Below the pieces are notes generated by a model that ran no database searches, was not told the DNA's origin, and worked only from the letters and a program-made list of their open reading frames with translations. Made by a program: the position numbers and the translations under genes. Shown in pieces: positions 51,272 to 64,000 of a stretch of 64,000 nucleotides of DNA. The stretch lies in NCBI GenBank assembly GCA_030622135.1, contig JAUXGL010000001.1:601-64600 (forward strand). The letters are read 5' to 3'. Every line of letters starts with the position of its first letter. Within the stretch, counting starts at the first letter, position 1. This DNA comes from Deltaproteobacteria bacterium. GTDB taxonomy: Bacteria > Myxococcota > B64-G9.

Positions 51272-52252
51272 CTATATCCCCAGAATGCGGCCGATCGCCT
51301 TGGCTAGATCGGTAAACTCCTTGCGAGCCCTGGCCACAGCCTGAATCTGTCCACCACCGATTCCGTCGGCCTGCTTGAGATCGAAGATTGGCTTGCGAGC
51401 TTGCTGTGCGAGCGGCACCAGGCTCGCGAAGTGTTTCAGCAATGCGATGCAATGGGGGTCCCTGTCCACGCTCGCTGGCCAGCGTTTCTCTGGTGTCTGG
51501 AGCACCTCATGGTGGAACACTGATGGGATCTGGCTCGCCCAACGCTGGTACCCGCGCACAGGTCTGTCCGACCGTGCAAGGTGCTGCTGTACGATGTACC
51601 CTCTTGGCAGGAACTCATGCGCAACCGGGCGTGGATCAGTCCGCTCGGCGGCGCGCTGCCAGTCTTTGCGCCAATCCCTCATCACAGGTCCCACGTTCCG
51701 GAGCCCCTGGAGGCTGAACAAATCCGGAGCGACCGGCAGGATAACCACGTCTGCGGCCAGGAGCGCTGCCCGGTTGAGCGCCCCCAGGTTGGGTCCGACG
51801 TCGAGCAGCAGCACATCGGCTTCGACCTTCTCCGCGGCGATGTCCGCAAGCCGCTGCAGGGCAGTAGCCACGTGGAGAGCCTTCTCATTGTCAGATTGAT
51901 GGATCTGCCCCCAGCTCTCCGCCAAAGGCTGCTCGAACCGGCCCAGCGCCAAGTCTCCAGGAAGAACCCAAAAATCATCGGCGATCTGGACCGGGGCTGG
52001 ATCCACGATGTCGCCCTTGCCGCGGCGGACCAGATCGATACACCGGGCCACGGTCGTCCCTCTAGGATCTTCAGACTCCCAGAGATCGACGAGACTCTCT
52101 TCGCTGAGACAGATGGCGGACAAGTTGCACTGGGGATCGTAGTCCAAGGCGATCGTCTTGAATCCCTGGCGAGCAAGTATGTGAGCGATGTTGAAGGTCA
52201 GGGTGGTCTTTCCCACTCCGCCCTTGTTGTTGAACAGGACAAGCGATTTCAA
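51272..52252 (-). CDS. ParA/MinD-like P-loop ATPase with C-terminal extension
   Basis: 326 aa; deviant Walker A NNKGGVGKTT; 4-nt overlap with upstream AlbA_2 gene. Confidence 0.75.
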   Translation of the reverse strand: MKSLVLFNNKGGVGKTTLTFNIAHILARQGFKTIALDYDPQCNLSAICLSEESLVDLWESEDPRGTTVARCIDLVRRGKGDIVDPAPVQIADDFWVLPGDLALGRFEQPLAESWGQIHQSDNEKALHVATALQRLADIAAEKVEADVLLLDVGPNLGALNRAALLAADVVILPVAPDLFSLQGLRNVGPVMRDWRKDWQRAAERTDPRPVAHEFLPRGYIVQQHLARSDRPVRGYQRWASQIPSVFHHEVLQTPEKRWPASVDRDPHCIALLKHFASLVPLAQQARKPIFDLKQADGIGGGQIQAVARARKEFTDLAKAIGRILGI

Positions 52253-53442
52253 GTATGACTCCGAATTGTGATGACCGTGTAGCCATCCGTCCTCACTTCG
52301 AACGGCGGGTTGCCATTTTTTTCTAGAAGTCGGCGCACCCGTTGGATGCCGCGACCCAGGCGCTCGACATATCCCAACTCGACCAGCAGGTTGGTGATGG
52401 TCGGATTCCGGTAGTCGGCCTGATCCCCGAATTCACCCTCCTTGGCCTGGCCATACGGACCACCCGGGTTGTAGAACTCGATCCGATCCTTGAACCAATT
52501 AATTCTGCCGGGCGCGTTCGTCCCCTCGTACAGCCTGTGCTGGACCTGGTTCCGCGCAAGCTCCCTCAGAGCCTCGACCGGATACTCCGGCGGGTACGGG
52601 GTTCGGATTCCCTGCTCCTTGGCCACCACCTGCGAGTTGTTGGCATTCAACTGAGCCCAGATGGTCTCCAGTTGGTCACACAGGTCTCCGGTGATGGTGC
52701 GTCGGCTTGTCACGGTCGAATCGACATCGACGCCATCGTAGCGCGCGAACTCCACGAGCGCCCCTGGCAGGTAGGTCAATGGATCCACACCGTACACGAG
52801 GACCGCGGCAGTGGTGGGCACCCAGATTCCGTCCACCAAGCGGGCCAGGTTCTTCTGCCCAAGCCATTTCTCGAACTCGGGGAAGGTCTGGTCATCCTCG
52901 TCCGAGTGCCGGGCGACATCGTACCGCTCCCGGAGTTTGCGCAGCGCCAGGGCGCCCAGGTCTGACCCGCGATGCGGCCTGATATCGAAGGGTTGACGAC
53001 CCTCGGGACGTCGTTCGTTTAATCGGACTCGATCTGCCTCGGTGGCTCGTTGGGTCGAGGTGCCCACTCGCACCCAGGGAACACCATTGACCTCGACCAC
53101 GGGCGGAACGGGATATGGCTGGACGCGGACCACGAGTATTTCACAACCAGCGATGTCGGCCTTCTGCACCCCGAACGAAGGGTTGGGGAGAATCTTCGTA
53201 GATTTCAACCTGTTGACAACTCTCTGGATGGCTTCGTCGGAGGCATCCGTCCCGACAGGTTCGCCCCTCTTGTTCACTCCGATGAGAATGACACCCGGAC
53301 GCCCACTGTCGCCGAGGTCGTTGGAGAAAGCGCATGCGGACCTGACCACGTCGTCGCTATCCGATTCTTTCCACTCAGACCATTCGCTCTCGCCAGCCAA
53401 GGCTTCTTTAACTATGGCCAGTATTTCGCCCGCTCCAGACAT
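52249..53442 (-). CDS. Schlafen-like AlbA_2 + HATPase_c_4 (RecG-C-terminal-like) putative DNA-binding ATPase
   Basis: 397 aa; N-terminal AlbA_2-like (EWKES...SACAFSNDLGDSGRPGVILIGV); C-terminal GHKL-like segment (ALRELARNQVQHRLYEG...RIEFYNPGG). Confidence 0.7.
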   Translation of the reverse strand: MSGAGEILAIVKEALAGESEWSEWKESDSDDVVRSACAFSNDLGDSGRPGVILIGVNKRGEPVGTDASDEAIQRVVNRLKSTKILPNPSFGVQKADIAGCEILVVRVQPYPVPPVVEVNGVPWVRVGTSTQRATEADRVRLNERRPEGRQPFDIRPHRGSDLGALALRKLRERYDVARHSDEDDQTFPEFEKWLGQKNLARLVDGIWVPTTAAVLVYGVDPLTYLPGALVEFARYDGVDVDSTVTSRRTITGDLCDQLETIWAQLNANNSQVVAKEQGIRTPYPPEYPVEALRELARNQVQHRLYEGTNAPGRINWFKDRIEFYNPGGPYGQAKEGEFGDQADYRNPTITNLLVELGYVERLGRGIQRVRRLLEKNGNPPFEVRTDGYTVITIRSHT

Positions 53443-56510: not shown

Positions 56511-57095
56511 ATGAAAAGGCTCGCTATCGTTATCGCGCTGACCGCATCCGTCCTGTTTGCCGGCACCGCCCTGGGCGCCGACAATAAGGCCGCCAAGAAG
56601 GGCAATCCCGCGGTGGTGATCAAGACCAGCATGGGGACCATCGAGGCGGTTCTTTACAAGGACAAGGCTCCCATCTCGGTAGAGAACTTCCTCAAGTACG
56701 TAGAGGACACGCACTACGACGGTACCATCTTCCACCGGGTCATCCCCAACTTCATGATTCAGGGTGGCGGCTTCAATGCCAAGTTCAGTCAGAAGAAGAC
56801 CCGCGACCCCATCAAGAACGAGGCCAAGAACGGCCTGAAGAACGAGCGCGGCACCTTTGCCATGGCCCGCACCAGCCAGGTCGATTCGGCTACCTGCCAG
56901 TTCTTCATCAACCTAAAGCACAATAAATCCCTCGACAACGACGCCCGCGGCTTCGGCTACGCCGTTTTCGGCAAGGTGACCCGGGGCATGGACGTGGTCG
57001 ACAAGATTGCCAAGGTCCAGACCGGCGCCAAGGGCTCTTTCTCCCGCGACTGCCCCAAGGAAGACATCACCATCGAGTCCGTCCGCGTAAAGTAG
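56511..57095 (+). CDS. ppiA: Peptidyl-prolyl cis-trans isomerase, cyclophilin type (secreted)
   Basis: 194 aa; signal peptide [23 protein letters not shown]; cyclophilin signatures. Confidence 0.9.
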
Positions 57096-57236
57096 GCCCT
57101 TGGTGAGGGCACATCGATAACAGGTATTCGATATTGCGCTTGTTGGTCTGACCTACGCCGCAAACGGCGCGGAAGCTGACCCTGGGGCCACCGGCCCGGC
57201 CAGCCAAGAGCCCGCTTCCGGCAGACGACGGCTTCT

Positions 57237-57548
57237 TTGCCGATCCCGTCCGAGTTCGACTGCATGGATGAGCCGCCCGTGGTCGAGGAGAAAACTCGGG
57301 ACAAAAGCAAAGAGGTCTGGCAACCCAGGAGCCTCCCGGACCTGCTTGAACATTTCGAAGTGTTTGAATTGTCTCACAACAAAGTTGAATCGTTACCAGC
57401 CTCCGAGGCTAACGTATCATCCCAAGAGGCAATTGGAAAATCATGTAAAAGAATTTGGCCTTTTGTGGCAACAATGATTTCAGCTGTCTTGGGTATCCTA
57501 GGAATTTTAGTTTGTTGTTTAATCAATTTGTTAAGATACCAATCATAA
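57237..57548 (+). CDS. Possible small C-terminally membrane-anchored protein spanning the GC-rich to AT-rich junction (doubtful)
   Basis: 103 aa; first ~20 codons have host-like high GC3, the rest lies in AT-rich DNA; C-terminal TM WPFVATMISAVLGILGILVCCLINLL. May be a disrupted host ORF fused to island DNA. Confidence 0.25.
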   Translation: MPIPSEFDCMDEPPVVEEKTRDKSKEVWQPRSLPDLLEHFEVFELSHNKVESLPASEANVSSQEAIGKSCKRIWPFVATMISAVLGILGILVCCLINLLRYQS

Positions 57549-57998
57549 CCTACATTTCGCAAGTCACGGAGGGTGTTCTGGGGAGAATTTCCTCGTACTA
57601 TGATAGAGGGTCCATCAGGCGTAGACTGACGGGTCCATGTCGAGGAGACGGAGGAGTTGTTTTTGTATACCAGAGAGCTCGATAGGAAACGTGGCCATCT
57701 CTTTTCCTCTTTCGAAATCATACCAGCAGACGTCGCTGAACTGAATGTCATTTCGAGGAGCGCAGCACGGTGTCGTTGACCCCTAGGTTCGGTCGAGGAT
57801 GCCGGCAGGGGCGGAGTGTGCCTGGATTCACGTCTTTTCTCGTAGTCGTGCCTGAGATTGTCGTCGCTGGGCTTGATTCATAAGGTTGAATCGTGGTCTG
57901 TTTCCAAATTGGAACTCGATGGAAGGAGTGACTCGGAGGAAAAGGTCCTTTATTACACCTATCCCTTACGCCACGATTATCTGACGAAGGGGTTGACC

Positions 57999-58649
57999 AT
58001 GAAGAAAAAGCGCAAACTAAACATTCTTGTGTCTTCGGTAGTGTATGGGTACGAAGACCTGCTGGAGAGCGTGTATTCGCTCCTGGAGACCTTCGGATAC
58101 AAAGTGCTCATGTCGCATAAGGGCACCGTGCCGATCGATCCGGACATCTCGGCAATGACCAGTTGCCTGGAAGCGGTCAAGAGGTGCGACCTATTCCTTG
58201 GCATCATTCTGCCACGATATGGATCAGGGAAAGAGCAGAAAGGCGGTCTGTCCATAACCCATCGCGAAGCACTGCACGCCATCAAAATGAACAAACCCCG
58301 CTGGTTTCTTGTCCATGAGCACGTTGCCATCGCCCGCCAGCTTCTTGATCCGTACCGCGACGAGACGAAGAAGCCAGAGTTCAAACTCAAACGTGGCACC
58401 ACTTTCAAGTCGACGTCGATCCTTTCCGATTTGCGCGTCCTTGAATTGTATGAAGCCGCCATGCGGCATAACGTGCCCGAGATCGCACACCGCAAAGGGA
58501 ACTGGGTGCAGTCCTACGGGCCGGACGACGATGCGCGTCTCTTCGCCACGGCGCAGTTCCGTCGCCACAGGGAATTGGCTGAGAAGTACCTGCCCAAGCT
58601 GGAAGACACGGGAGCGATTCGGGATCGGGTAGAGGGATGCAAATCATGA
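57999..58649 (+). CDS. DUF4062/TIR-like small protein (candidate defence effector or sensor)
   Basis: Preferred ATG 57999 (MKKKRKLNILVSSVVYGYEDLLESVYSLLETFGYKV...). Pattern hydrophobic-ISS...DL.E.R/ES...L, flavodoxin-like size, resembles DUF4062 as remembered. Overlaps the next gene by 13 nt. Confidence 0.55.
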   Translation: MKKKRKLNILVSSVVYGYEDLLESVYSLLETFGYKVLMSHKGTVPIDPDISAMTSCLEAVKRCDLFLGIILPRYGSGKEQKGGLSITHREALHAIKMNKPRWFLVHEHVAIARQLLDPYRDETKKPEFKLKRGTTFKSTSILSDLRVLELYEAAMRHNVPEIAHRKGNWVQSYGPDDDARLFATAQFRRHRELAEKYLPKLEDTGAIRDRVEGCKS

Positions 58650-60028
58650 GATCTGACGTCCTCCATGTGATCGAGAACGGGGAGTCCGAGACCGCTGAGT
58701 TCAAGAGTTCTCGCAGTTCGTTCGAGGCACTTGCACGAGCCGTCTGCGGGATGCTCAACCAGCAGGGAGGTGTACTTCTTTGGGGTGTCGATGATACCGG
58801 GCAGCTGACGGGCGTGGAAGATGCCGAGGCCCAAGCAGAGGACCTGACGCACTTTCTGATGCGTCACATGAACCCACGCCCCTTGCTTTCCGTCTCGGTG
58901 CATGAGGCCAAGGGCAAGCCGATCATCATGGTTGATGTGCCCTCGGGTTCGGACAAACCATACTCGCTGGGCCGGCAGATTTTGGTCCGCATCGGGAGCA
59001 GAACGATGCGCGCCGGTGTGGACGAAAGTGCGGCTTTGGTGGAGCAGAGCGCGATAGAGCTGGAACGCTGGGAGCGTGAACCCATGCCCGGCTTTGCGGT
59101 GGAAGACTGCGATGTTGATGAGCTTGAGAAAGCAAGATCCGAGATCGCGCAAGCAGGGCGATTCGGAATCGATGCTCCTGCGAGTGACGAAGAACTGTTG
59201 CAACGTCTCTATCTGTGGCGCAACGGACAGGTCACGAATGCCGGTGTTGTCCTTTTCGCATCTCAACCGCGCATGTGGGTGCCTAACGTCTTCGTGCGTG
59301 TTGTGTCCTACGCTGAAGGCAAGGCTGGGCCCATCGCCAACGATGTGATCGTGGATGGTCCAGCCGTCCGATCTCTGCGTGAGGTCGTGACAATCATTCA
59401 GCAACGCACCGGTTTCTCCGGTAGGTTCGTGAAGGGCAAACTGAAACGCGAAGATCGGCCTGCGTATTCCGTGTTCGCCCTGAGGGAGGGACTGGTGAAT
59501 GCCATCACTCACCGGTCTTACGAGGTCATAGGCGGCAGTGTGTGCGTGGAGATATTCCCAGATCGTCTCGTCATCCGCAATCCGGGCAGACTGCCGGACG
59601 GGTGGACAGCACAAGACCTGCGACGCGTGCACGGGTCGCATCCATTCAACCCGGACATTGCCCAAGTGTTTCTCCTGCGCGGGCTGATGGAACAGCTTGG
59701 GATGGGGACACAGAAACTGATGGCCGCGTGCAAGGAACTGGGCGCCAAACTGCCGGTTTGGCGCGTCGAACAGGGCACTGTGGCACTGACGATCTTCCAG
59801 GCACCCGAACCGGAGGCGGCAGACGTGCTGACAGGGCGTCAGGCCGAATTCGTTGGCTCGCTGATGGCTGGAGCTGAGTTCAGAGCTGCCGATTATTTGA
59901 GCGCTACCGGTATGAGTGAGCGCCAGGGGCGGCGTGACCTGGCTGAACTGGAGAAACGGGGGATCATCGAACGCCACGGCAAGGGACGGGCCACGGTGTA
60001 TAGACGGACTGACGGGGGTCGCTCATGA
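58637..60028 (+). CDS. Schlafen-like AlbA_2 + HATPase_c_4 + C-terminal wHTH protein (RecG-C-like putative regulator/ATPase)
   Basis: 463 aa; AlbA_2-like (ETAEFKSS...LARAVCGMLNQQGGVLLWGVDDTGQLTGV), GHKL-like (NAITHRSYEV...VCVEIFPDRLVIRNPGRLPDG), wHTH (DYLSATGMSERQGRRDLAELEKRGIIERHGKGRATVYRR). Same layout as 52249..53442. Confidence 0.7.
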   Translation: MQIMRSDVLHVIENGESETAEFKSSRSSFEALARAVCGMLNQQGGVLLWGVDDTGQLTGVEDAEAQAEDLTHFLMRHMNPRPLLSVSVHEAKGKPIIMVDVPSGSDKPYSLGRQILVRIGSRTMRAGVDESAALVEQSAIELERWEREPMPGFAVEDCDVDELEKARSEIAQAGRFGIDAPASDEELLQRLYLWRNGQVTNAGVVLFASQPRMWVPNVFVRVVSYAEGKAGPIANDVIVDGPAVRSLREVVTIIQQRTGFSGRFVKGKLKREDRPAYSVFALREGLVNAITHRSYEVIGGSVCVEIFPDRLVIRNPGRLPDGWTAQDLRRVHGSHPFNPDIAQVFLLRGLMEQLGMGTQKLMAACKELGAKLPVWRVEQGTVALTIFQAPEPEAADVLTGRQAEFVGSLMAGAEFRAADYLSATGMSERQGRRDLAELEKRGIIERHGKGRATVYRRTDGGRS

Positions 60029-60324
60029 TGCCAGTCCGGCCAAATCCGGCCAGAATCGGCCACCCCCTGAATGTCCACCTTAGCCGGTGTTGTAACCCAT
60101 TTCCGAGGTGTGCTGCGTGCCCCGCAATTTGTTACAGTGCACGCAGTTACGGCGACTGCGTCGCGAAACCAACAGAATTCGGCCAAATCCGGCCACATTC
60201 GGCCACGTTCGGTTTACGCACGAAGGGCAGATCGCGAACGCAACGAGAATCTGACCCGGATTACACCGATGACACGACTTGGCGCCTCCATTGACGAGGG
60301 CCGTCTGAACGGCTGGTTGGGCTA

Positions 60325-61029
60325 CTACCGGCTGGACGCTTGGCGAATAGCTTGCGGTTGAGCGGGGATGCGGGCGATGACCAGGGCCAGGGTTTCGTCT
60401 TCGGACAGGCGCCAGAAGATGTCCGGCCGGGCGCCGTCTCTGGATTTCACCACGGCTTTCTTCCAGGTGCGGGAACCGGTCGGATCTAGGGAGAGGACGT
60501 TGACGCTCTTGGTGCTCTGGTGGAATCCGGTTCTCTGGGCCTTGAGCACGGCTTCCTTGATGCACCAGATCACCGTGCCGGCTTTGTGCTTCCAGTCGTC
60601 GGGGAACTGCTCGATCAGCTCGCGCTCCTGGTCGGTGTAGAAGTCCTCGTAGAAGTTCCGCGACCGGTCCGCCACCACCTCGATGTCCGCGCCGACGGTT
60701 CCCTCCTGGTCGGGGCAAACGGCGCACAGGGCCCGTTCGCCGGAATGAGAGATGGAGAGCGAGACCGGGAGGTGGGTTCCCTCGATGGTCAGGGGTTGCG
60801 GCCAGCCGTCCGGCGCCCGTTTGATGTGGATGAGTTTTTGCGGGGGCAGGTCTAGGGCCAGGTCGCCGGCGGTTCGTTCCAGCAGGGTCTTGGCGGCGGC
60901 TCTTCCCAGCAGCCACTGGCGGTAGCGTCCCGGATGGCGGTAGCGCCGGCCTTCGTGGACCTCAAAGAGGCATAAAAACTCTTGATCGTTCAGCCCGGGC
61001 CCGGGTCTGGCCAGCAGCCAGCGGATCAT
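60325..61029 (-). CDS. 4'-phosphopantetheinyl transferase (Sfp/PfaE-type)
   Basis: 234 aa; GADIEVV and [10 protein letters not shown] PPTase motifs; 4-nt overlap with the upstream PKS gene. Confidence 0.75.
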
Positions 61030-64000
61030 TGGTCTTCTTCTTCGGGTTCCAGCCCGGAGCGAACATCGTTCGGAAGCGCATTGGGCATTGGCGATGTGCG
61101 GTAGCCGTCGAGCTCCACCAGAACGAAGCCACGCTCGTCTACCACCTGGATTCCGTATTGGCCGTGATTGCCGCCGTTCTGCGGAACCACATGGGCGGTA
61201 ACCTTACCGCGATCGCCCTCGGGGACGCGATTGATCTTCATCTTGCGGACTCCGGCGGGAAGACCGAGCTTGTTGCTGGAGGAGGCCTCCATGATCCCGG
61301 CCGCCTGGAAGGCCAACTCGGTGAACATGGGGGCCGCGGAGAGGTTGCCCGGCTTGGCCAACGGGGGCAGCTCCGTTCCGGAACGCATCCAGCCGGACAT
61401 TTTACCGTTACCGTTCGCGGTCACCTTATCGAGCACCTGGAAGCTGGGGCCGTGGAAGTACGCTCGGTAGATGGCTTCCCGGCTGATACGGCGGGTGTCT
61501 CCATTTCCGGGTGGGTCCATCCGTACCTCGGGCATGTCCACGTCCAGGCGTACCTTGGCACGAAAATGGCGGGTGGTCTGCTGCTTTCCGCCATGCAGGT
61601 TGCGAGTGGTCTCCATGGTTGCCAGAAACAGCCGGCCCTTTCCGTCCCAGGTGGGCAGCATGCGCACGGTGGCCGTGCGGGGCTCGTCTCGGTAGAACTT
61701 CAAGGGTGCGTCGAAGGACAGATCCTCGATGGCCACCACGGTCAGGTCCGGGCGCATCAGGCCGGCGGCCTCGGCGAAGGTCTCGATGGCCATCACCCCG
61801 GGCAACACCGGTAGCCCGTCGATGCGATGATCGTCCAGGTAACGGTCGCGTGACGGATCGAAGCCGACCCGGAGGCGCAGCCCGTCCGCCAGGGTCCAGT
61901 CCAGCACCTCGCCGAGTAGCGGAAAGCGTTTCGGGTTGTCGGTGAGCCGGCTGCGTATGATCTGCATGTCTACGCCTTCCAGTCTCAGGCTCTCGGCCAG
62001 TAGGCCCAGGGAGCGCGCCACCACCAGCTCTCCCGAGTGTCCGCTCGAGAACACCCGGCGCACGGACGTCGCGCCCTCCCGCTGGGGGATCAGGTTGATG
62101 CCGACGGCGTCCAGTTGCTTGGGCACCGACCCCCGCGTGGCCATACCCACGCCGTCCCAGCCGCTGAATGCCAGGGTGAACACCTGCAGGTCGGGGCGAG
62201 TGCGCTTCAGGTAGGTCGTGGTCTTGGCCATCAGATCGTTGGCGGCCGAGTAGTCGGTCTGCCCGGCGTTGCCGAAGCGACCGGCGACGGACCCGAAGAG
62301 CATGATCCCCTTGACCGGTACGTTCCGGGTGGCGCGGAGCAGGGAATGGAGCCCGTACACCTTGACGCCCAGGATGAGATCGAAAGATTCCCGGGTCTTC
62401 TTGGCGATGCCCTGGCTGTGCTCCAGCCCGGCCGCGTGCAGGATCAGATCGATCCGCCCGTGGGCATCTTTGATCTTTTGCACGGCCCGGGCGGTGGCTT
62501 CCGCATCCGTCACGTCGAAGGCCAGGGAATGAGCTTCGCCGCCCTGTTTTCTCACGTTCTCCAGGTTCGAAAGCGCCGCGGCCTTCCGTTCGACCTGTCG
62601 CAGCGCCTTCTCCACCTGGACCGGCGTGACCCGTTCACCCTGTTGTTTCATACGCTCGATGAGCGTCGCTTTCAGGGCATCCCGGTTTTCGCGCAGGGCC
62701 AAAACGTCCGGGTCGTCCTGTGGGGGAGCCGGAACCAGATCGGCCAGGTAGTAAGTGCCGCCGAGATGTCCGGCCAGATCGCCGGCGATCTGACCGGTGA
62801 TGTCGCCGGCCCCGCCGGTGATCAGGACCACCGGATTCTTTTCCAGTGGGGCCTGTTCGTCGGGAACAAACTCGCTTAGCCCCACGCCCCAGCGACGGAT
62901 CCCCCGCCGGCCCACTTCCACGACTCCGCCGTCGCGCTCCGCCTCTTCGACTAATGTGGTTGCGATTGTGCTCGCATTCACGTCTTCGGGCAGATCGACC
63001 ACCTTGCAAAGCGTCCGGGGCCACTCGCGGGAAAGTGCTTTGACCAGCCCGGTGGTTGCGCCGGACGCCGGATCCAGAGACCCTCCGCCCGGACGTAGTC
63101 CCAGGTGTCCACCCATCCGGGTGGCACACACGAAGAAGCCGCCTTCCGTATTCGAAAGATGCTCGTCAAGTACCTGGGCTACCCTGAAGGGCATACGTGC
63201 CCGTCGATCGATAGCGCTCTTGAATGCCTGGGTATCCTCGGTGTCCGGCGGCACCGCATCGGAGAGCGCCGAAAGGATCCAGACCCCTTTCGGCGGCCCG
63301 GCCTGGCATGCTTGCCTGATTCTCTCGGCCACGGCGTCCGGATCGCCGGAGTCATCAATCCGCAGCGGATCCCCGCCCCGCACCCGCAGCGCTTCTTCGA
63401 TCGCCGCGGCCGCACCGTTAAAATCACCGATGATGAACGACCGGCCGGCGGGATTCACTCCGGTGGGCAAACACTCCCGGGCCCGCGGCCTCCCCACCAA
63501 CACCGGTGCCAGATACCGCATCGATTCCGACTCCGTCGCCACACTGTCCAGCGGTTCGATCGTCGGCGCGCCTTCTTCCGGCTCTTTTGGGTCTTCTTTT
63601 GCGGGTGTCGTTCCCATCTTGTCTTGTGCAAACTGGATGACATGATTGAGCGTAGGATATTCCGACAGTTTCAGGTCGTCCTGCTTGGGGATGTTGAAGG
63701 CCGCTCGCACCTCCGAGAACATCTCGGCCTGCTTGACCGTGTCGATGCCCAGATCCGCTTCCAGATCCAGATCGAGGTCGAGCATATCCGTAGGATAACC
63801 GGTCTTATCGGAGACAATGGCCAGGACCTTGTCCTTGATCGCTCCTATATCTGCTTTGGGGCGATCGGCTTCAACCCGGTCGCTTTGTTGTTTGCTTTGT
63901 TGTTTGCCGTCCTGTTTTTTAGGGCCTTCCTCGCCGGCTTGAGGGTGAACCTGAACGTTGACGGTCTCTTTCTCAGGCTCTTTTGCGGGCGCGTCCGGCG
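61026..64000 (-). CDS. PfaA-like PKS/PUFA-synthase C-terminal part: ACP - ketoreductase - PKS-type dehydratase (N-terminus beyond window)
   Basis: Reading frame is open to the window end. ACP motif [14 protein letters not shown]; KR ([16 protein letters not shown]); DH ([11 protein letters not shown] HxxxGxxxxP, HGPSFQ). Confidence 0.75.

What the first reader, a model, noticed from the sequence alone, without database searches (positions are those of the whole stretch)
57100..60320. AT-rich island carrying a DUF4062/TIR-like protein plus a Schlafen-like AlbA_2-HATPase_c_4-wHTH protein: candidate two-gene defence module
After the ppiA stop (57095) the GC content falls sharply. The segment holds only two convincing genes, with a 13-nt overlap. 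The first is a 217-aa protein whose N-terminus (NILVSSVVYGYEDLLESVYSLLETFGYKV) resembles the DUF4062/TIR-like fold, often found N-terminal to STAND NTPases and in anti-phage proteins. The second is a 463-aa Schlafen-like AlbA_2 + GHKL ATPase (HATPase_c_4) + wHTH protein. The island ends in an odd repeat-rich spacer (60031-60211) before host PKS genes resume. A possible host ORF at 57237 runs from GC-rich into AT-rich DNA, as if the island interrupted it. I know of no named defence system with this exact pairing. Schlafen-family and TIR-like domains are both established immune modules, so this is a plausible uncharacterised defence pair.
Basis: partly seen in the sequence, partly recalled or inferred. 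Interest (0 to 1): 0.8.

Follow-up and report, generated by a model that had tools for sequence, protein, structure and literature searches.

The report
NADase–Schlafen defence pair with repeats
The window carries a small TIR-like enzyme gene fused in an operon to a Schlafen-ATPase-DNA-binding gene, followed by a conserved repeat element. The two genes always travel together across at least nine bacterial phyla, often inside anti-phage defence islands, so this is very probably an unnamed anti-phage system built from two immune modules that are each already known.

Summary
Gene A (57999-58649, 216 aa) is a DUF4062/"NIR" TIR-like protein. Gene B (58646 or 58637-60028) is a Schlafen AlbA_2 + GHKL ATPase + wHTH protein ("Schlatpase-HTH").

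The pair is obligate:
- All 23 genome loci with an A homologue have B directly downstream.
- 35 of 36 metagenome genes of the B clade have A directly upstream, against 1 of 26 more distant Schlatpases.
- Pairing persists down to 34% A identity, on two plasmids, and as one natural A-B fusion protein.

Neighbours are often Lamassu, Druantia, type III and IIG RM, Azaca or GmrSD genes.

Three 2026 preprints show that DUF4062 domains are NAD+-depleting anti-phage effectors. None describes a Schlafen partner.

The "odd spacer" (60036-60205) is a conserved third part. It consists of two arrays of three 10-nt units flanking a variable core. The unit sequence changes with the B lineage, so the arrays are probably binding sites for B's wHTH.

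The "AT-rich island" is only partly true, and the "interrupted host ORF" is an orphan ORF.

Verdict: a new variant of known kinds. The defence function and the mechanism are inferred, not shown.

The parts
57999..58649 (+). Gene A: a 216-aa DUF4062/NIR TIR-like protein, the predicted NAD+ glycohydrolase effector. E90 is the putative catalytic Glu, within S85-I-T-H-R-E90.
   Evidence: - Pfam DUF4062, E=3e-15.
- AF2 model with pLDDT 94.8.
- Foldseek hits: DNPH1, BcmB, SPARTA TIR.
- Only G75, E90 and W169 are invariant among 66 homologues down to 32% identity.
- A homologues in other phyla are 63-81% identical.
58646..60028 (+). Gene B: a Schlafen AlbA_2 nuclease domain (E16-x4-E21-x-K23 in 463-aa numbering), a GHKL ATPase (HATPase_c_4) and a C-terminal winged HTH. 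An alternative start lies at 58637. B is the predicted sensor, scaffold and DNA-binding partner.
   Evidence: - Pfam SLFN_AlbA_2 E=5e-20 and HATPase_c_4 E=1.5e-17, plus weak HTH hits.
- PADLOC hits only the Schlafen-GHKL part of a pAgo model.
- The GHKL motifs are invariant: E284, N288, H292, R293, N315, G355, G357.
- The Schlafen motif is intact here but degenerate in several orthologues.
- The ATGA overlap with the stop of A is shown.
60036..60062 (+). Array 1: three 10-nt-phased units (CCGGCCA, CCGGCCA, TCGGCCA), beginning 8 nt after the stop codon of B.
   Evidence: The same array sits at the same position in 19 of 21 close loci.
60063..60178 (.). Variable core between the arrays. In the window it contains short inverted repeats. 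It has no conserved sequence across loci.
   Evidence: Sequences are. There is no consistent RNA structure on either strand and no Rfam hit.
60179..60216 (+). Array 2: three units (TCGGCCA, CCGGCCA, TCGGCCA) in the same orientation as array 1, plus a degenerate fourth unit.
   Evidence: In other loci the two arrays of one locus share their idiosyncratic variants, for example L008 and L018.
57096..57998 (.). Low-GC spacer upstream of gene A, containing orphan ORFs (57237-57548 on +, 57374-57751 on -). It is not part of the conserved module and its origin is unknown.
   Evidence: GC content is. The ORF has no homologue. Upstream regions of other loci are unrelated, and there gene A often follows the previous gene by 4-110 nt.

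Best explanation
This is a three-part mobile anti-phage module.

**Gene A** is a stand-alone DUF4062/NIR TIR-like enzyme. It has almost no sensor domain of its own. By homology with Swarozyc, Evangelion, Vulcan, Vesta and Avs2-NIR, it is most likely an NAD+ glycohydrolase that kills or arrests the infected cell (abortive infection). E90 would be the catalytic glutamate.

**Gene B** is translationally coupled to A and physically associated with it. It would act as the sensor and switch. Its GHKL ATPase would drive oligomerisation, as ATP binding does in the Schlafen-GHKL module of SLFN-pAgo. Its Schlafen/AlbA_2 domain would bind, and where the motif is intact cleave, nucleic acid such as tRNA. 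Its winged HTH would bind the two arrays of 10-nt repeats that lie just 3' of its own gene.

On infection, B would change oligomeric state and assemble A into an active NADase.

**Shown here**
- The domain identities and the fold of A.
- The invariant residues in A and in the ATPase of B.
- The obligate A-B linkage, and the natural A-B fusion.
- The conserved repeat element.
- The defence-island context.

**Inferred**
- NADase chemistry.
- Which protein senses and which one executes.
- Binding of B to the arrays.
- The defence phenotype itself.
For: **Linkage of A and B**
- 23 of 23 genome loci from Acidobacteriota, Planctomycetota, Verrucomicrobiota, Kiritimatiellota, Lentisphaerota, Fermentibacterota, Myxococcota and Bacteroidota have B directly after A.
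- Pairing also holds on a Hymenobacter plasmid and on Acinetobacter pC9_4.
- It holds at 34% and 43% A identity.
- 35 of 36 B-clade metagenome genes have A upstream, against 1 of 26 outside the clade.
- The overlap is ATGA or 8 nt.

**Physical association**
- P0184 is a natural DUF4062-AlbA_2-HATPase_c_4-HTH fusion protein.

**Gene A as the effector**
- It has a TIR/NDT-like fold, the same hit profile reported for PsAvs2 DUF4062.
- E90 is invariant. It sits in an S-x-T-x-x-E context like the 'acidic-SYT' catalytic Glu of Eva01.
- Published DUF4062 domains deplete NAD+ in a Glu-dependent way.
- A is 63-77% identical across phyla, while B in the same loci is 39-65% identical. That pattern fits a conserved effector and a faster-evolving sensor.

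**Gene B as a switch rather than the obligatory killer**
- The GHKL motifs are invariant.
- The Schlafen E-x4-E-x-K motif is lost or degenerate in L007, L017, L018, L014, L015 and the Hymenobacter plasmid, and absent in the Acinetobacter partner.

**Defence context**
- LmuA/LmuB at E=0, DruE at E=0, type III Mod at E=0, ZacA at 8e-133, DrmMI/IIG, GmrSD, TIR/SEFIR and TrwB/TrwC are immediate neighbours.

**Arrays**
- Conserved position and layout.
- Strong enrichment over controls (p=5e-20).
- Lineage-specific units that track the wHTH type.
Against: - No experiment exists for this pair or for any Schlatpase-HTH protein. Of seven bacterial Schlafens tested in the published screen, only two other architectures defended.
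- PADLOC and NCBIfam have no model for A.
- The fold also resembles CMP and dNMP N-glycosidases (MilB, DNPH1, BcmB), so the substrate could be a nucleotide other than NAD+.
- In the window, B's Schlafen catalytic motif is intact, so B could itself be an effector.
- The window locus is not in a defence island. Its neighbours are rpsA, two PPIases, a PPTase and a PKS.
- No homologue was found in the viral contig collection or in phage records.
- The arrays lie 3' of the operon, an odd place for an operator. They are missing in many distant pairs, especially those with a Fic-like_C tail.
- The covariation between the wHTH and the repeat unit is confounded by phylogeny.
Confidence: 0.6

Rival explanations
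1. Dual-effector or B-effector system. B is the main effector, a phage-activated tRNase as in Cash, RorSlfn5 and SLFN-pAgo. A is a second effector or an accessory that senses or produces a nucleotide signal, as TIR proteins do in Thoeris.
For: - The window's B has the full catalytic E-x4-E-x-K motif.
- Bacterial Schlafens are shown tRNases.
- TIR-like enzymes can make signalling nucleotides.
- The Swarozyc authors note that DUF4062 operons may do more than NADase chemistry.
Against: - The Schlafen motif is lost in several orthologous pairs, while A's Glu and B's ATPase motifs are never lost.
- B has no recognisable signal-binding domain such as SAVED, CARF or SLOG.
Confidence: 0.2
2. A toxin-antitoxin-like or addiction module of mobile elements. 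A is a toxic NADase or N-glycosidase. B neutralises it and represses transcription through its wHTH. The primary role is element maintenance, not phage defence.
For: - The unit is compact, translationally coupled and horizontally mobile, and occurs on plasmids and next to conjugation genes.
- B has a wHTH and cognate-looking repeats.
Against: - A 460-aa ATPase-nuclease is atypical for an antitoxin.
- The repeats are 3' of the operon, not at its promoter.
- Most loci are chromosomal defence islands, not plasmids.
- The A-B fusion protein is hard to reconcile with a labile antitoxin.
Confidence: 0.12
3. A housekeeping or nucleotide-sanitising function. A is a DNPH1/MilB-like nucleotide N-glycosidase that removes modified nucleotides, and B is its regulator. 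There is no immune role.
For: The top structural matches include DNPH1, BcmB and MilB. The window locus sits among housekeeping and PKS genes.
Against: - The distribution across phyla is patchy and HGT-like, with 63-81% identity.
- The flanks vary from locus to locus and are frequently defence genes.
- Three independent studies found NADase and defence activity for DUF4062.
Confidence: 0.05

Closest known systems
Vesta (VstA small NIR/DUF4062 protein + VstB alkaline phosphatase; bioRxiv 10.64898/2026.09.04.749371)
   Same: It is a two-gene operon in which a small DUF4062 protein is the Glu-dependent effector and is tightly linked to one partner gene.
   Different: The partner here is a Schlafen-GHKL-wHTH protein, not an alkaline phosphatase. 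A 3' repeat element is also present. VstB is dispensable for defence, whereas the fusion protein and the strict linkage suggest that B is integral.
Swarozyc and Evangelion (single-gene DUF4062 + AUX systems; 10.64898/2026.05.01.722283 and 10.64898/2026.06.25.731849)
   Same: They share the DUF4062 TIR-like core with a catalytic Glu, depletion of NAD+ leading to abortive infection, horizontal spread and defence-island context.
   Different: Those proteins carry their own sensor (AUX) domain and work alone. Gene A is essentially core plus a short helical tail and never occurs without B in its clade.
Schlatpase / pSlfn HisKinase-HTH proteins (10.64898/2026.05.29.728809; 10.1101/2025.07.24.666596; PMC12839542; PMC13462974)
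   Same: B has exactly this architecture: AlbA_2 + PF13749 GHKL + C-terminal HTH. It accounts for 19% of prokaryotic Schlafens and is often found next to BREX, RM and CRISPR.
   Different: Those proteins are described as stand-alone or loosely associated genes with no fixed partner. The B clade here is obligately paired with a DUF4062 gene. I found no description of 3' repeat arrays.
SLFN-pAgo (RzAgo)
   Same: It has the same Schlafen-GHKL supradomain. The best PADLOC hit of B is to this part of a pAgo model. ATP binding drives oligomerisation.
   Different: B has no Argonaute core. A wHTH takes its place, and the effector is supplied by a separate NADase-like gene.
SPARTA / TIR-APAZ short pAgo and Thoeris-type TIR systems
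   Same: The logic is the same: a nucleic-acid-binding sensor switches on a TIR-type NADase by oligomerisation. SPARTA TIR is a structural match of A.
   Different: The sensor is unrelated, and A belongs to DUF4062, which is distinct from canonical TIR.

Membership tests
DUF4062 / NIR TIR-like NADase domain family | Significant match to Pfam PF13271 | tested here: met
   E=3.2e-15, 56.5 bits against a cutoff of 24.7, covering profile positions 2-82 of 82.
DUF4062 / NIR TIR-like NADase domain family | TIR / nucleoside-deoxyribosyltransferase-like flavodoxin fold | tested here: met
DUF4062 / NIR TIR-like NADase domain family | Conserved catalytic glutamate (KpSwz E97, Eva01 E87, Vulcan E98, VstA E103, PsAvs2 E108) | tested here: met
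   E90 is one of only three invariant residues in 66 homologues. It lies at the start of helix 86-96 in an S-I-T-H-R-E context. Equivalence to the published residues is inferred from position and motif, not from a direct alignment.
DUF4062 / NIR TIR-like NADase domain family | NAD+ hydrolysis to ADPR + nicotinamide, and phage defence | not testable with these tools
   This needs biochemistry and plaque assays.
Vesta | Partner gene is an alkaline phosphatase (VstB) | tested here: not met
   The partner is AlbA_2 + HATPase_c_4 + wHTH.
Swarozyc / Evangelion / Vulcan (single-gene DUF4062 systems) | One polypeptide with a DUF4062 core plus its own sensor region (AUX or HEAT), functioning alone | tested here: not met
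   A is 216 aa. The model shows the core plus an insert and one C-terminal helix pair. In its clade, A is always followed by B.
Schlatpase / pSlfn HisKinase-HTH | AlbA_2 Schlafen domain followed by a PF13749 GHKL ATPase | tested here: met
   Pfam E=5e-20 and 1.5e-17. The N-box and G-boxes are invariant.
Schlatpase / pSlfn HisKinase-HTH | Schlafen catalytic motif E-x4-(E/D)-x-K | tested here: met
   The window's B has E16-SETA-E21-F-K23. The motif is not conserved in all orthologues.
Schlatpase / pSlfn HisKinase-HTH | C-terminal helix-turn-helix | tested here: inconclusive
   Only sub-threshold Pfam hits were found: HTH_DeoR, FaeA, DIP2311-like_C and PaaX at residues 405-459. The tail 'SERQxRRDLxxLExxGxIERxGKGxATxY' is conserved. 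No structure was predicted for B.
SLFN-pAgo | Argonaute MID-PIWI core fused to the Schlatpase | tested here: not met
   B is 460-463 aa. The PADLOC pAgo hit covers only profile positions 67-439 of 1121.

The most novel reading that the evidence does not exclude
The module would be a defence system that carries its own DNA docking site. The Schlafen-ATPase-wHTH protein is held on, or regulated through, two 3' arrays of 10-nt repeats that co-evolve with its winged helix. Release from this cis element, or re-oligomerisation on it, during infection would license the partner NADase. Possible cues are host DNA degradation, competition from phage DNA, or an ATP change.

Lineage-specific arrays also follow many Schlatpase-HTH genes that lack gene A. 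This could therefore be a general and so far undescribed property of the most common class of bacterial Schlafen proteins.
Probability: 0.2. Interest if true: 0.8.

Novelty: new variant of a known kind. Interest (0 to 1): 0.62.

Why it matters
DUF4062/NIR NADases and bacterial Schlafens were each recognised as immune modules only in 2025-2026. Both have human counterparts: TEP1, and SLFN11/SAMD9.

The largest class of bacterial Schlafens, Schlafen-GHKL-HTH, has no demonstrated function or trigger. An obligate pairing of one clade of that class with a minimal NADase gives a direct handle. It predicts an interaction, a read-out (NAD+ loss) and a DNA ligand (the arrays).

If confirmed, three things would follow:
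- A named two-gene system would be added to defence catalogues.
- It would show how a Schlafen-ATPase can act as a switch for a second effector.
- The role of the HTH could be explained.

Tried and rejected
1. **Structured RNA in the spacer.** There is no Rfam hit. Core folds on both strands are not consistently better than shuffles in 11 loci. Core sequences are unrelated. Rejected as a conserved RNA.
2. **tRNA or att site at the island edge.** No tRNA lies in the window. No flanking direct repeats bracket the module.
3. **Interrupted host ORF at 57237.** It is an orphan.
4. **First structure prediction.** The shallow, 70%-identical alignment gave pLDDT 54 and was unusable. It was redone with 66 diverse homologues.
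5. **Sequence search of A against PDB chains.** Nothing significant was found. B matched only 3lmm, an uncharacterised protein.
6. **Phage and viral carriage.** There was no hit in phage records or IMG/VR.
7. **Strict three-copy tandem-repeat detector.** It missed most arrays because the spacing alternates between 10 and 11 nt. I replaced it with a 7-mer-at-9-12-nt test with controls.
8. **Sigma-70 promoter scan.** It gave nothing above shuffles. Reading the cores by eye gave no consistent -35/-10, and the hosts span many phyla.
9. **Core as promoter for a downstream cargo gene.** Only about 10 of 18 loci have a co-directional gene after array 2, so this is not general.
10. **My own dinucleotide-shuffle script.** It timed out.
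Full report
**1. What is there**

Between the second peptidyl-prolyl isomerase gene (stop at 57095) and a minus-strand phosphopantetheinyl transferase (60325-61029) lie two plus-strand genes.

Gene A (57999-58649, 216 aa) matches Pfam DUF4062 over the whole profile, with E=3e-15.

Gene B (ORF 58637-60028) matches SLFN_AlbA_2 at residues 16-125 and HATPase_c_4 at residues 299-386. It also has sub-threshold winged-HTH hits at residues 405-459. PADLOC and NCBIfam have no model for A. PADLOC hits B only through the Schlafen-GHKL part of a pAgo model.

B most likely starts at ATG 58646.
- That start overlaps the TGA of A as ATGA.
- All orthologues start at this Met.
- A GAGGGA lies at the right distance for a ribosome-binding site.

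**2. The "island"**

GC content:

| Segment | GC | Percentile among window segments of that size |
|---|---|---|
| 57251-57750 | 46% | lowest 0.6% |
| Gene A | 54.8% | 7th |
| Gene B | 59.4% | 30th |
| Whole window | 60.4% | - |

Only the upstream spacer and gene A are compositionally unusual.

The ORF at 57237-57548 has no relative among 5.8 billion proteins except its own record. The idea of an interrupted host gene is therefore not supported.

The upstream spacer is not conserved in any other locus. Elsewhere gene A often follows the preceding gene by only 4-110 nt.

The window comes from JGI metagenome 3300040951, contig Ga0451374_12503. I could not test synteny with relatives.

**3. The pair is obligate**

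A has 629 close relatives, 68-81% identical, from unrelated phyla.

A scan of one genome per species found 23 loci, in Acidobacteriota, Planctomycetota including Kuenenia, Verrucomicrobiota, Kiritimatiellota, Victivallales, Fermentibacteraceae, Myxococcales and Flavobacteriales. In all 23, a B homologue (39-65% identical) starts at the stop of A.

The pairing persists in more distant cases:
- At 45% A identity on a Hymenobacter plasmid.
- At 40% on Acinetobacter plasmid pC9_4. There the partner is annotated "Fic family" but is a B homologue (E=4e-38) with a Fic-like_C tail.
- At 43% and 34% identity in metagenome contigs.

I also ran the reverse test. Of 80 metagenome Schlafen-GHKL genes fetched with a B profile:
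- 35 of 36 that belong to the B clade (HMM E<=1e-100) and have upstream sequence carry A directly upstream.
- Only 1 of 26 more distant ones does, and that one sits at the threshold.

An exhaustive search of 1.8 billion cluster representatives found 64 A-family clusters at E<=1e-30. These include:
- One natural A-B fusion, P0184: DUF4062 + AlbA_2 + HATPase_c_4 + HTH, 640 aa.
- Tandem A-A proteins.
- An A-TIR_2 fusion.

Fusion and translational coupling argue for a physical complex.

**4. Context**

Flanking genes differ from locus to locus, so the conserved unit is A, B and the 3' element. Immediate neighbours often belong to known defence systems:
- Lamassu LmuA/LmuB (E=2e-210 and E=0)
- Druantia DruE (E=0) with a UvrD/GajB-like helicase
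- type III Mod (E=0) and a Res-like helicase
- Azaca ZacA (8e-133)
- DrmMI/type IIG enzymes
- GmrSD
- a TIR/SEFIR protein
- a ZorD/DpdE-like helicase

One locus lies next to TrwB/TrwC conjugation genes. The window's own locus is not in such an island.

**5. Gene A**

With a deep alignment, the AF2 model is confident: pLDDT 94.8, pTM 0.89. The first attempt with a shallow alignment failed.

Structural matches:
- Foldseek ranks DNPH1, BcmB and SPARTA TIR.
- This is the same mixture that Le Mouellic et al. report for the DUF4062 domain of PsAvs2.

Among 66 homologues down to 32% identity, only G75, E90 and W169 are invariant. E90 begins helix 86-96 in an S-I-T-H-R-E context. That resembles the "acidic-SYT" catalytic Glu of Eva01 and lies at a position similar to E87-E108 of the characterised proteins.

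A has no separate sensor domain. After the core come an insert, one more strand (168-173, containing W169) and C-terminal helices.

**6. Gene B**

B has the "Schlatpase" supradomain plus an HTH.
- This is the commonest architecture of prokaryotic Schlafens: 58.6% carry the GHKL domain, and most are small with or without a C-terminal HTH. The HisKinase-HTH class is 19.2% of bacterial Schlafens.
- It is frequently found next to BREX, RM and CRISPR.
- In SLFN-pAgo, ATP binding to this GHKL domain drives tetramerisation and licenses tRNA cleavage.

Across the B family down to 24% identity, the ATPase N-box and G-boxes are invariant: E284, N288, H292, R293, N315, G355, G357.

The Schlafen catalytic motif E-x4-(E/D)-x-K is intact in the window (E16, E21, K23). 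In other orthologues it is not:
- The second acid is lost in L007, L017 and L018.
- The Lys is lost in L010, L014 and the Hymenobacter plasmid.
- L015's motif (GRNEKVEFR) is degenerate, with the first Glu apparently replaced.
- The whole N-terminal motif is missing in the Acinetobacter partner.

A's Glu is therefore never lost, but B's nuclease site sometimes is. For this reason I assign the effector role to A and the switch or sensor role to B. B may be a second effector where its motif is intact. This assignment is inference.

**7. The 3' element**

In the window, the element begins eight nucleotides after the stop of B.
- Three units come first (CCGGCCA, CCGGCCA, TCGGCCA at 60036, 60046 and 60056).
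- A 116-nt core follows.
- Three more units in the same orientation follow (60179, 60189, 60199), plus a degenerate fourth.

The same layout follows B in 19 of 21 close loci. It consists of three units at 10-11-nt steps, a 80-125-nt core, and three more units. The unit is CCGGCCA or, mainly in Planctomycetota, CCGGACA.

Within one locus the two arrays share private variants, for example CAGGACA in L008 and a 40-nt identity in L018.

More distant pairs keep arrays but with other units:
- GGGCTCA on the Hymenobacter plasmid
- CCGGAAG-type on the Acinetobacter plasmid
- GATGATACTAAT x3 in L029
- TTGCCGGAT x2 followed by TAAGGGGACA x3 after the fusion gene

A control-based test asked whether any 7-mer is repeated at 9-12 nt within 70 nt of the stop:

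| Set | Positive |
|---|---|
| Genome and plasmid pairs | 17 of 24 (p=5e-20) |
| Distant metagenome pairs | 6 of 33 |
| Schlafen-GHKL-HTH genes without A | 13 of 42 (p=1e-9) |
| Control windows | 3.3% |

Arrays accompany the "SERQARRDL...GKGxATxY" type tail. They are mostly absent with the Fic-like_C type tail.

Within the former type, the residue after the wing Tyr is Arg in 11 of 16 CCGGCCA loci and never Arg or Lys in 12 CCGGACA loci. This is suggestive but confounded by shared ancestry.

Several other observations bear on what the element is:
- The cores share no sequence, show no consistent RNA structure on either strand and match no Rfam family.
- In L010 the element is inverted and lies upstream of A.
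- L022 has arrays on both sides of the pair.
- Only about half of the loci have a co-directional gene after array 2.

The simplest reading is that these are cognate DNA sites for B's wHTH. Head-to-tail binding to 10-11-bp direct repeats is well known for winged-helix proteins such as OmpR and PhoB (my own knowledge). What the sites do is open. They could mediate regulation, tethering or nucleation.

**8. Literature and novelty**

Three 2026 preprints establish DUF4062 as a Glu-dependent NADase in anti-phage defence. The systems are Swarozyc, Evangelion, and Avs2-NIR, Vulcan and Vesta. Four papers establish bacterial Schlafens as defence nucleases and describe the Schlafen-GHKL-HTH class.

None of them contains the words Schlafen, AlbA or HATPase together with DUF4062, in either direction. 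That holds for the main texts and for the one supplement held as text. Figures were not readable, so a depiction in a tree or operon panel cannot be excluded.

I therefore rate this a new variant of known kinds: two known immune modules in a new obligate combination, with a previously unremarked cis element.

**9. Verdict**

Both the defence function and NADase chemistry are inferred from homology and context.

My confidence in the overall explanation is about 0.6. Interest is moderate to high (0.62).
- The kind of system is no longer surprising in 2026.
- The strict pairing, the natural fusion and the co-varying 3' arrays give the commonest and least understood class of bacterial Schlafens a testable mechanism.

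Noticed in passing
window 51272-53442 (- strand): A second Schlafen AlbA_2 + HATPase_c_4 protein (397 aa, no HTH) lies at 52249-53442. It overlaps by 4 nt a downstream ParA/CbiA-like P-loop ATPase (326 aa, 51272-52252). This may be another Schlafen-based two-gene unit, 5 kb from the finding.
   Followed up: partly
L075/L076, L095, L096, L100, L102, L079, L106, L082, L086 (just after the stop of the Schlafen-GHKL-HTH gene): Schlafen-GHKL-HTH genes that have no DUF4062 partner also carry lineage-specific tandem 9-12-nt repeats right after their stop codon. Examples are TGCGTCAACTT x3, TGCGGTGCAAA x3, TTGGCTC and TAATTGG. The rate is 13 of 42 against 3.3% in controls. This may be a general feature of the class.
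   Followed up: partly
P0184 / L030 4001-5923; P0122, P0126, P0144; P0252: Natural variants of gene A exist: an A-B fusion protein (640 aa), tandem A-A duplications in one polypeptide (also upstream of B in L069, L070 and L072), and an A + TIR_2 fusion.
   Followed up: partly
L010 5735-5880 and L022 1-30: In a Myxococcales MAG the repeat element is inverted and lies upstream of gene A, facing a minus-strand gene. In an Isosphaeraceae MAG, arrays flank the pair on both sides, with CCGGCCA upstream and CCGGACA downstream.
   Followed up: no
L004 543-8846; L003 142-9789: The A-B-element cassette sits between a Res-like helicase and a type III Mod methylase in L004. In L003 it sits between Lamassu LmuA/LmuB and a methylase. 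It looks as if it was inserted inside or appended to other defence operons.
   Followed up: no
L025 (Acinetobacter baumannii plasmid pC9_4) 1984-4351: On an 8.9-kb plasmid, the DUF4062 gene is preceded by an overlapping 166-aa gene with no Pfam hit. It is followed by a B homologue that RefSeq calls 'Fic family protein'. That protein lacks the Schlafen catalytic N-terminus and ends in a Fic-like_C domain, so the annotation is misleading.
   Followed up: partly
window 57251-57750: This 500-nt stretch has 46% GC in a 60% GC contig. It holds only orphan ORFs: 57237-57548 on the plus strand, with a C-terminal hydrophobic segment, and 57374-57751 on the minus strand. Its origin is unexplained.
   Followed up: partly
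window 60325-63785 (- strand): A 4'-phosphopantetheinyl transferase (ACPS) gene overlaps the end of a PKS-type KR/DH protein (919 aa), convergent with the module. This is host secondary-metabolism DNA.
   Followed up: no
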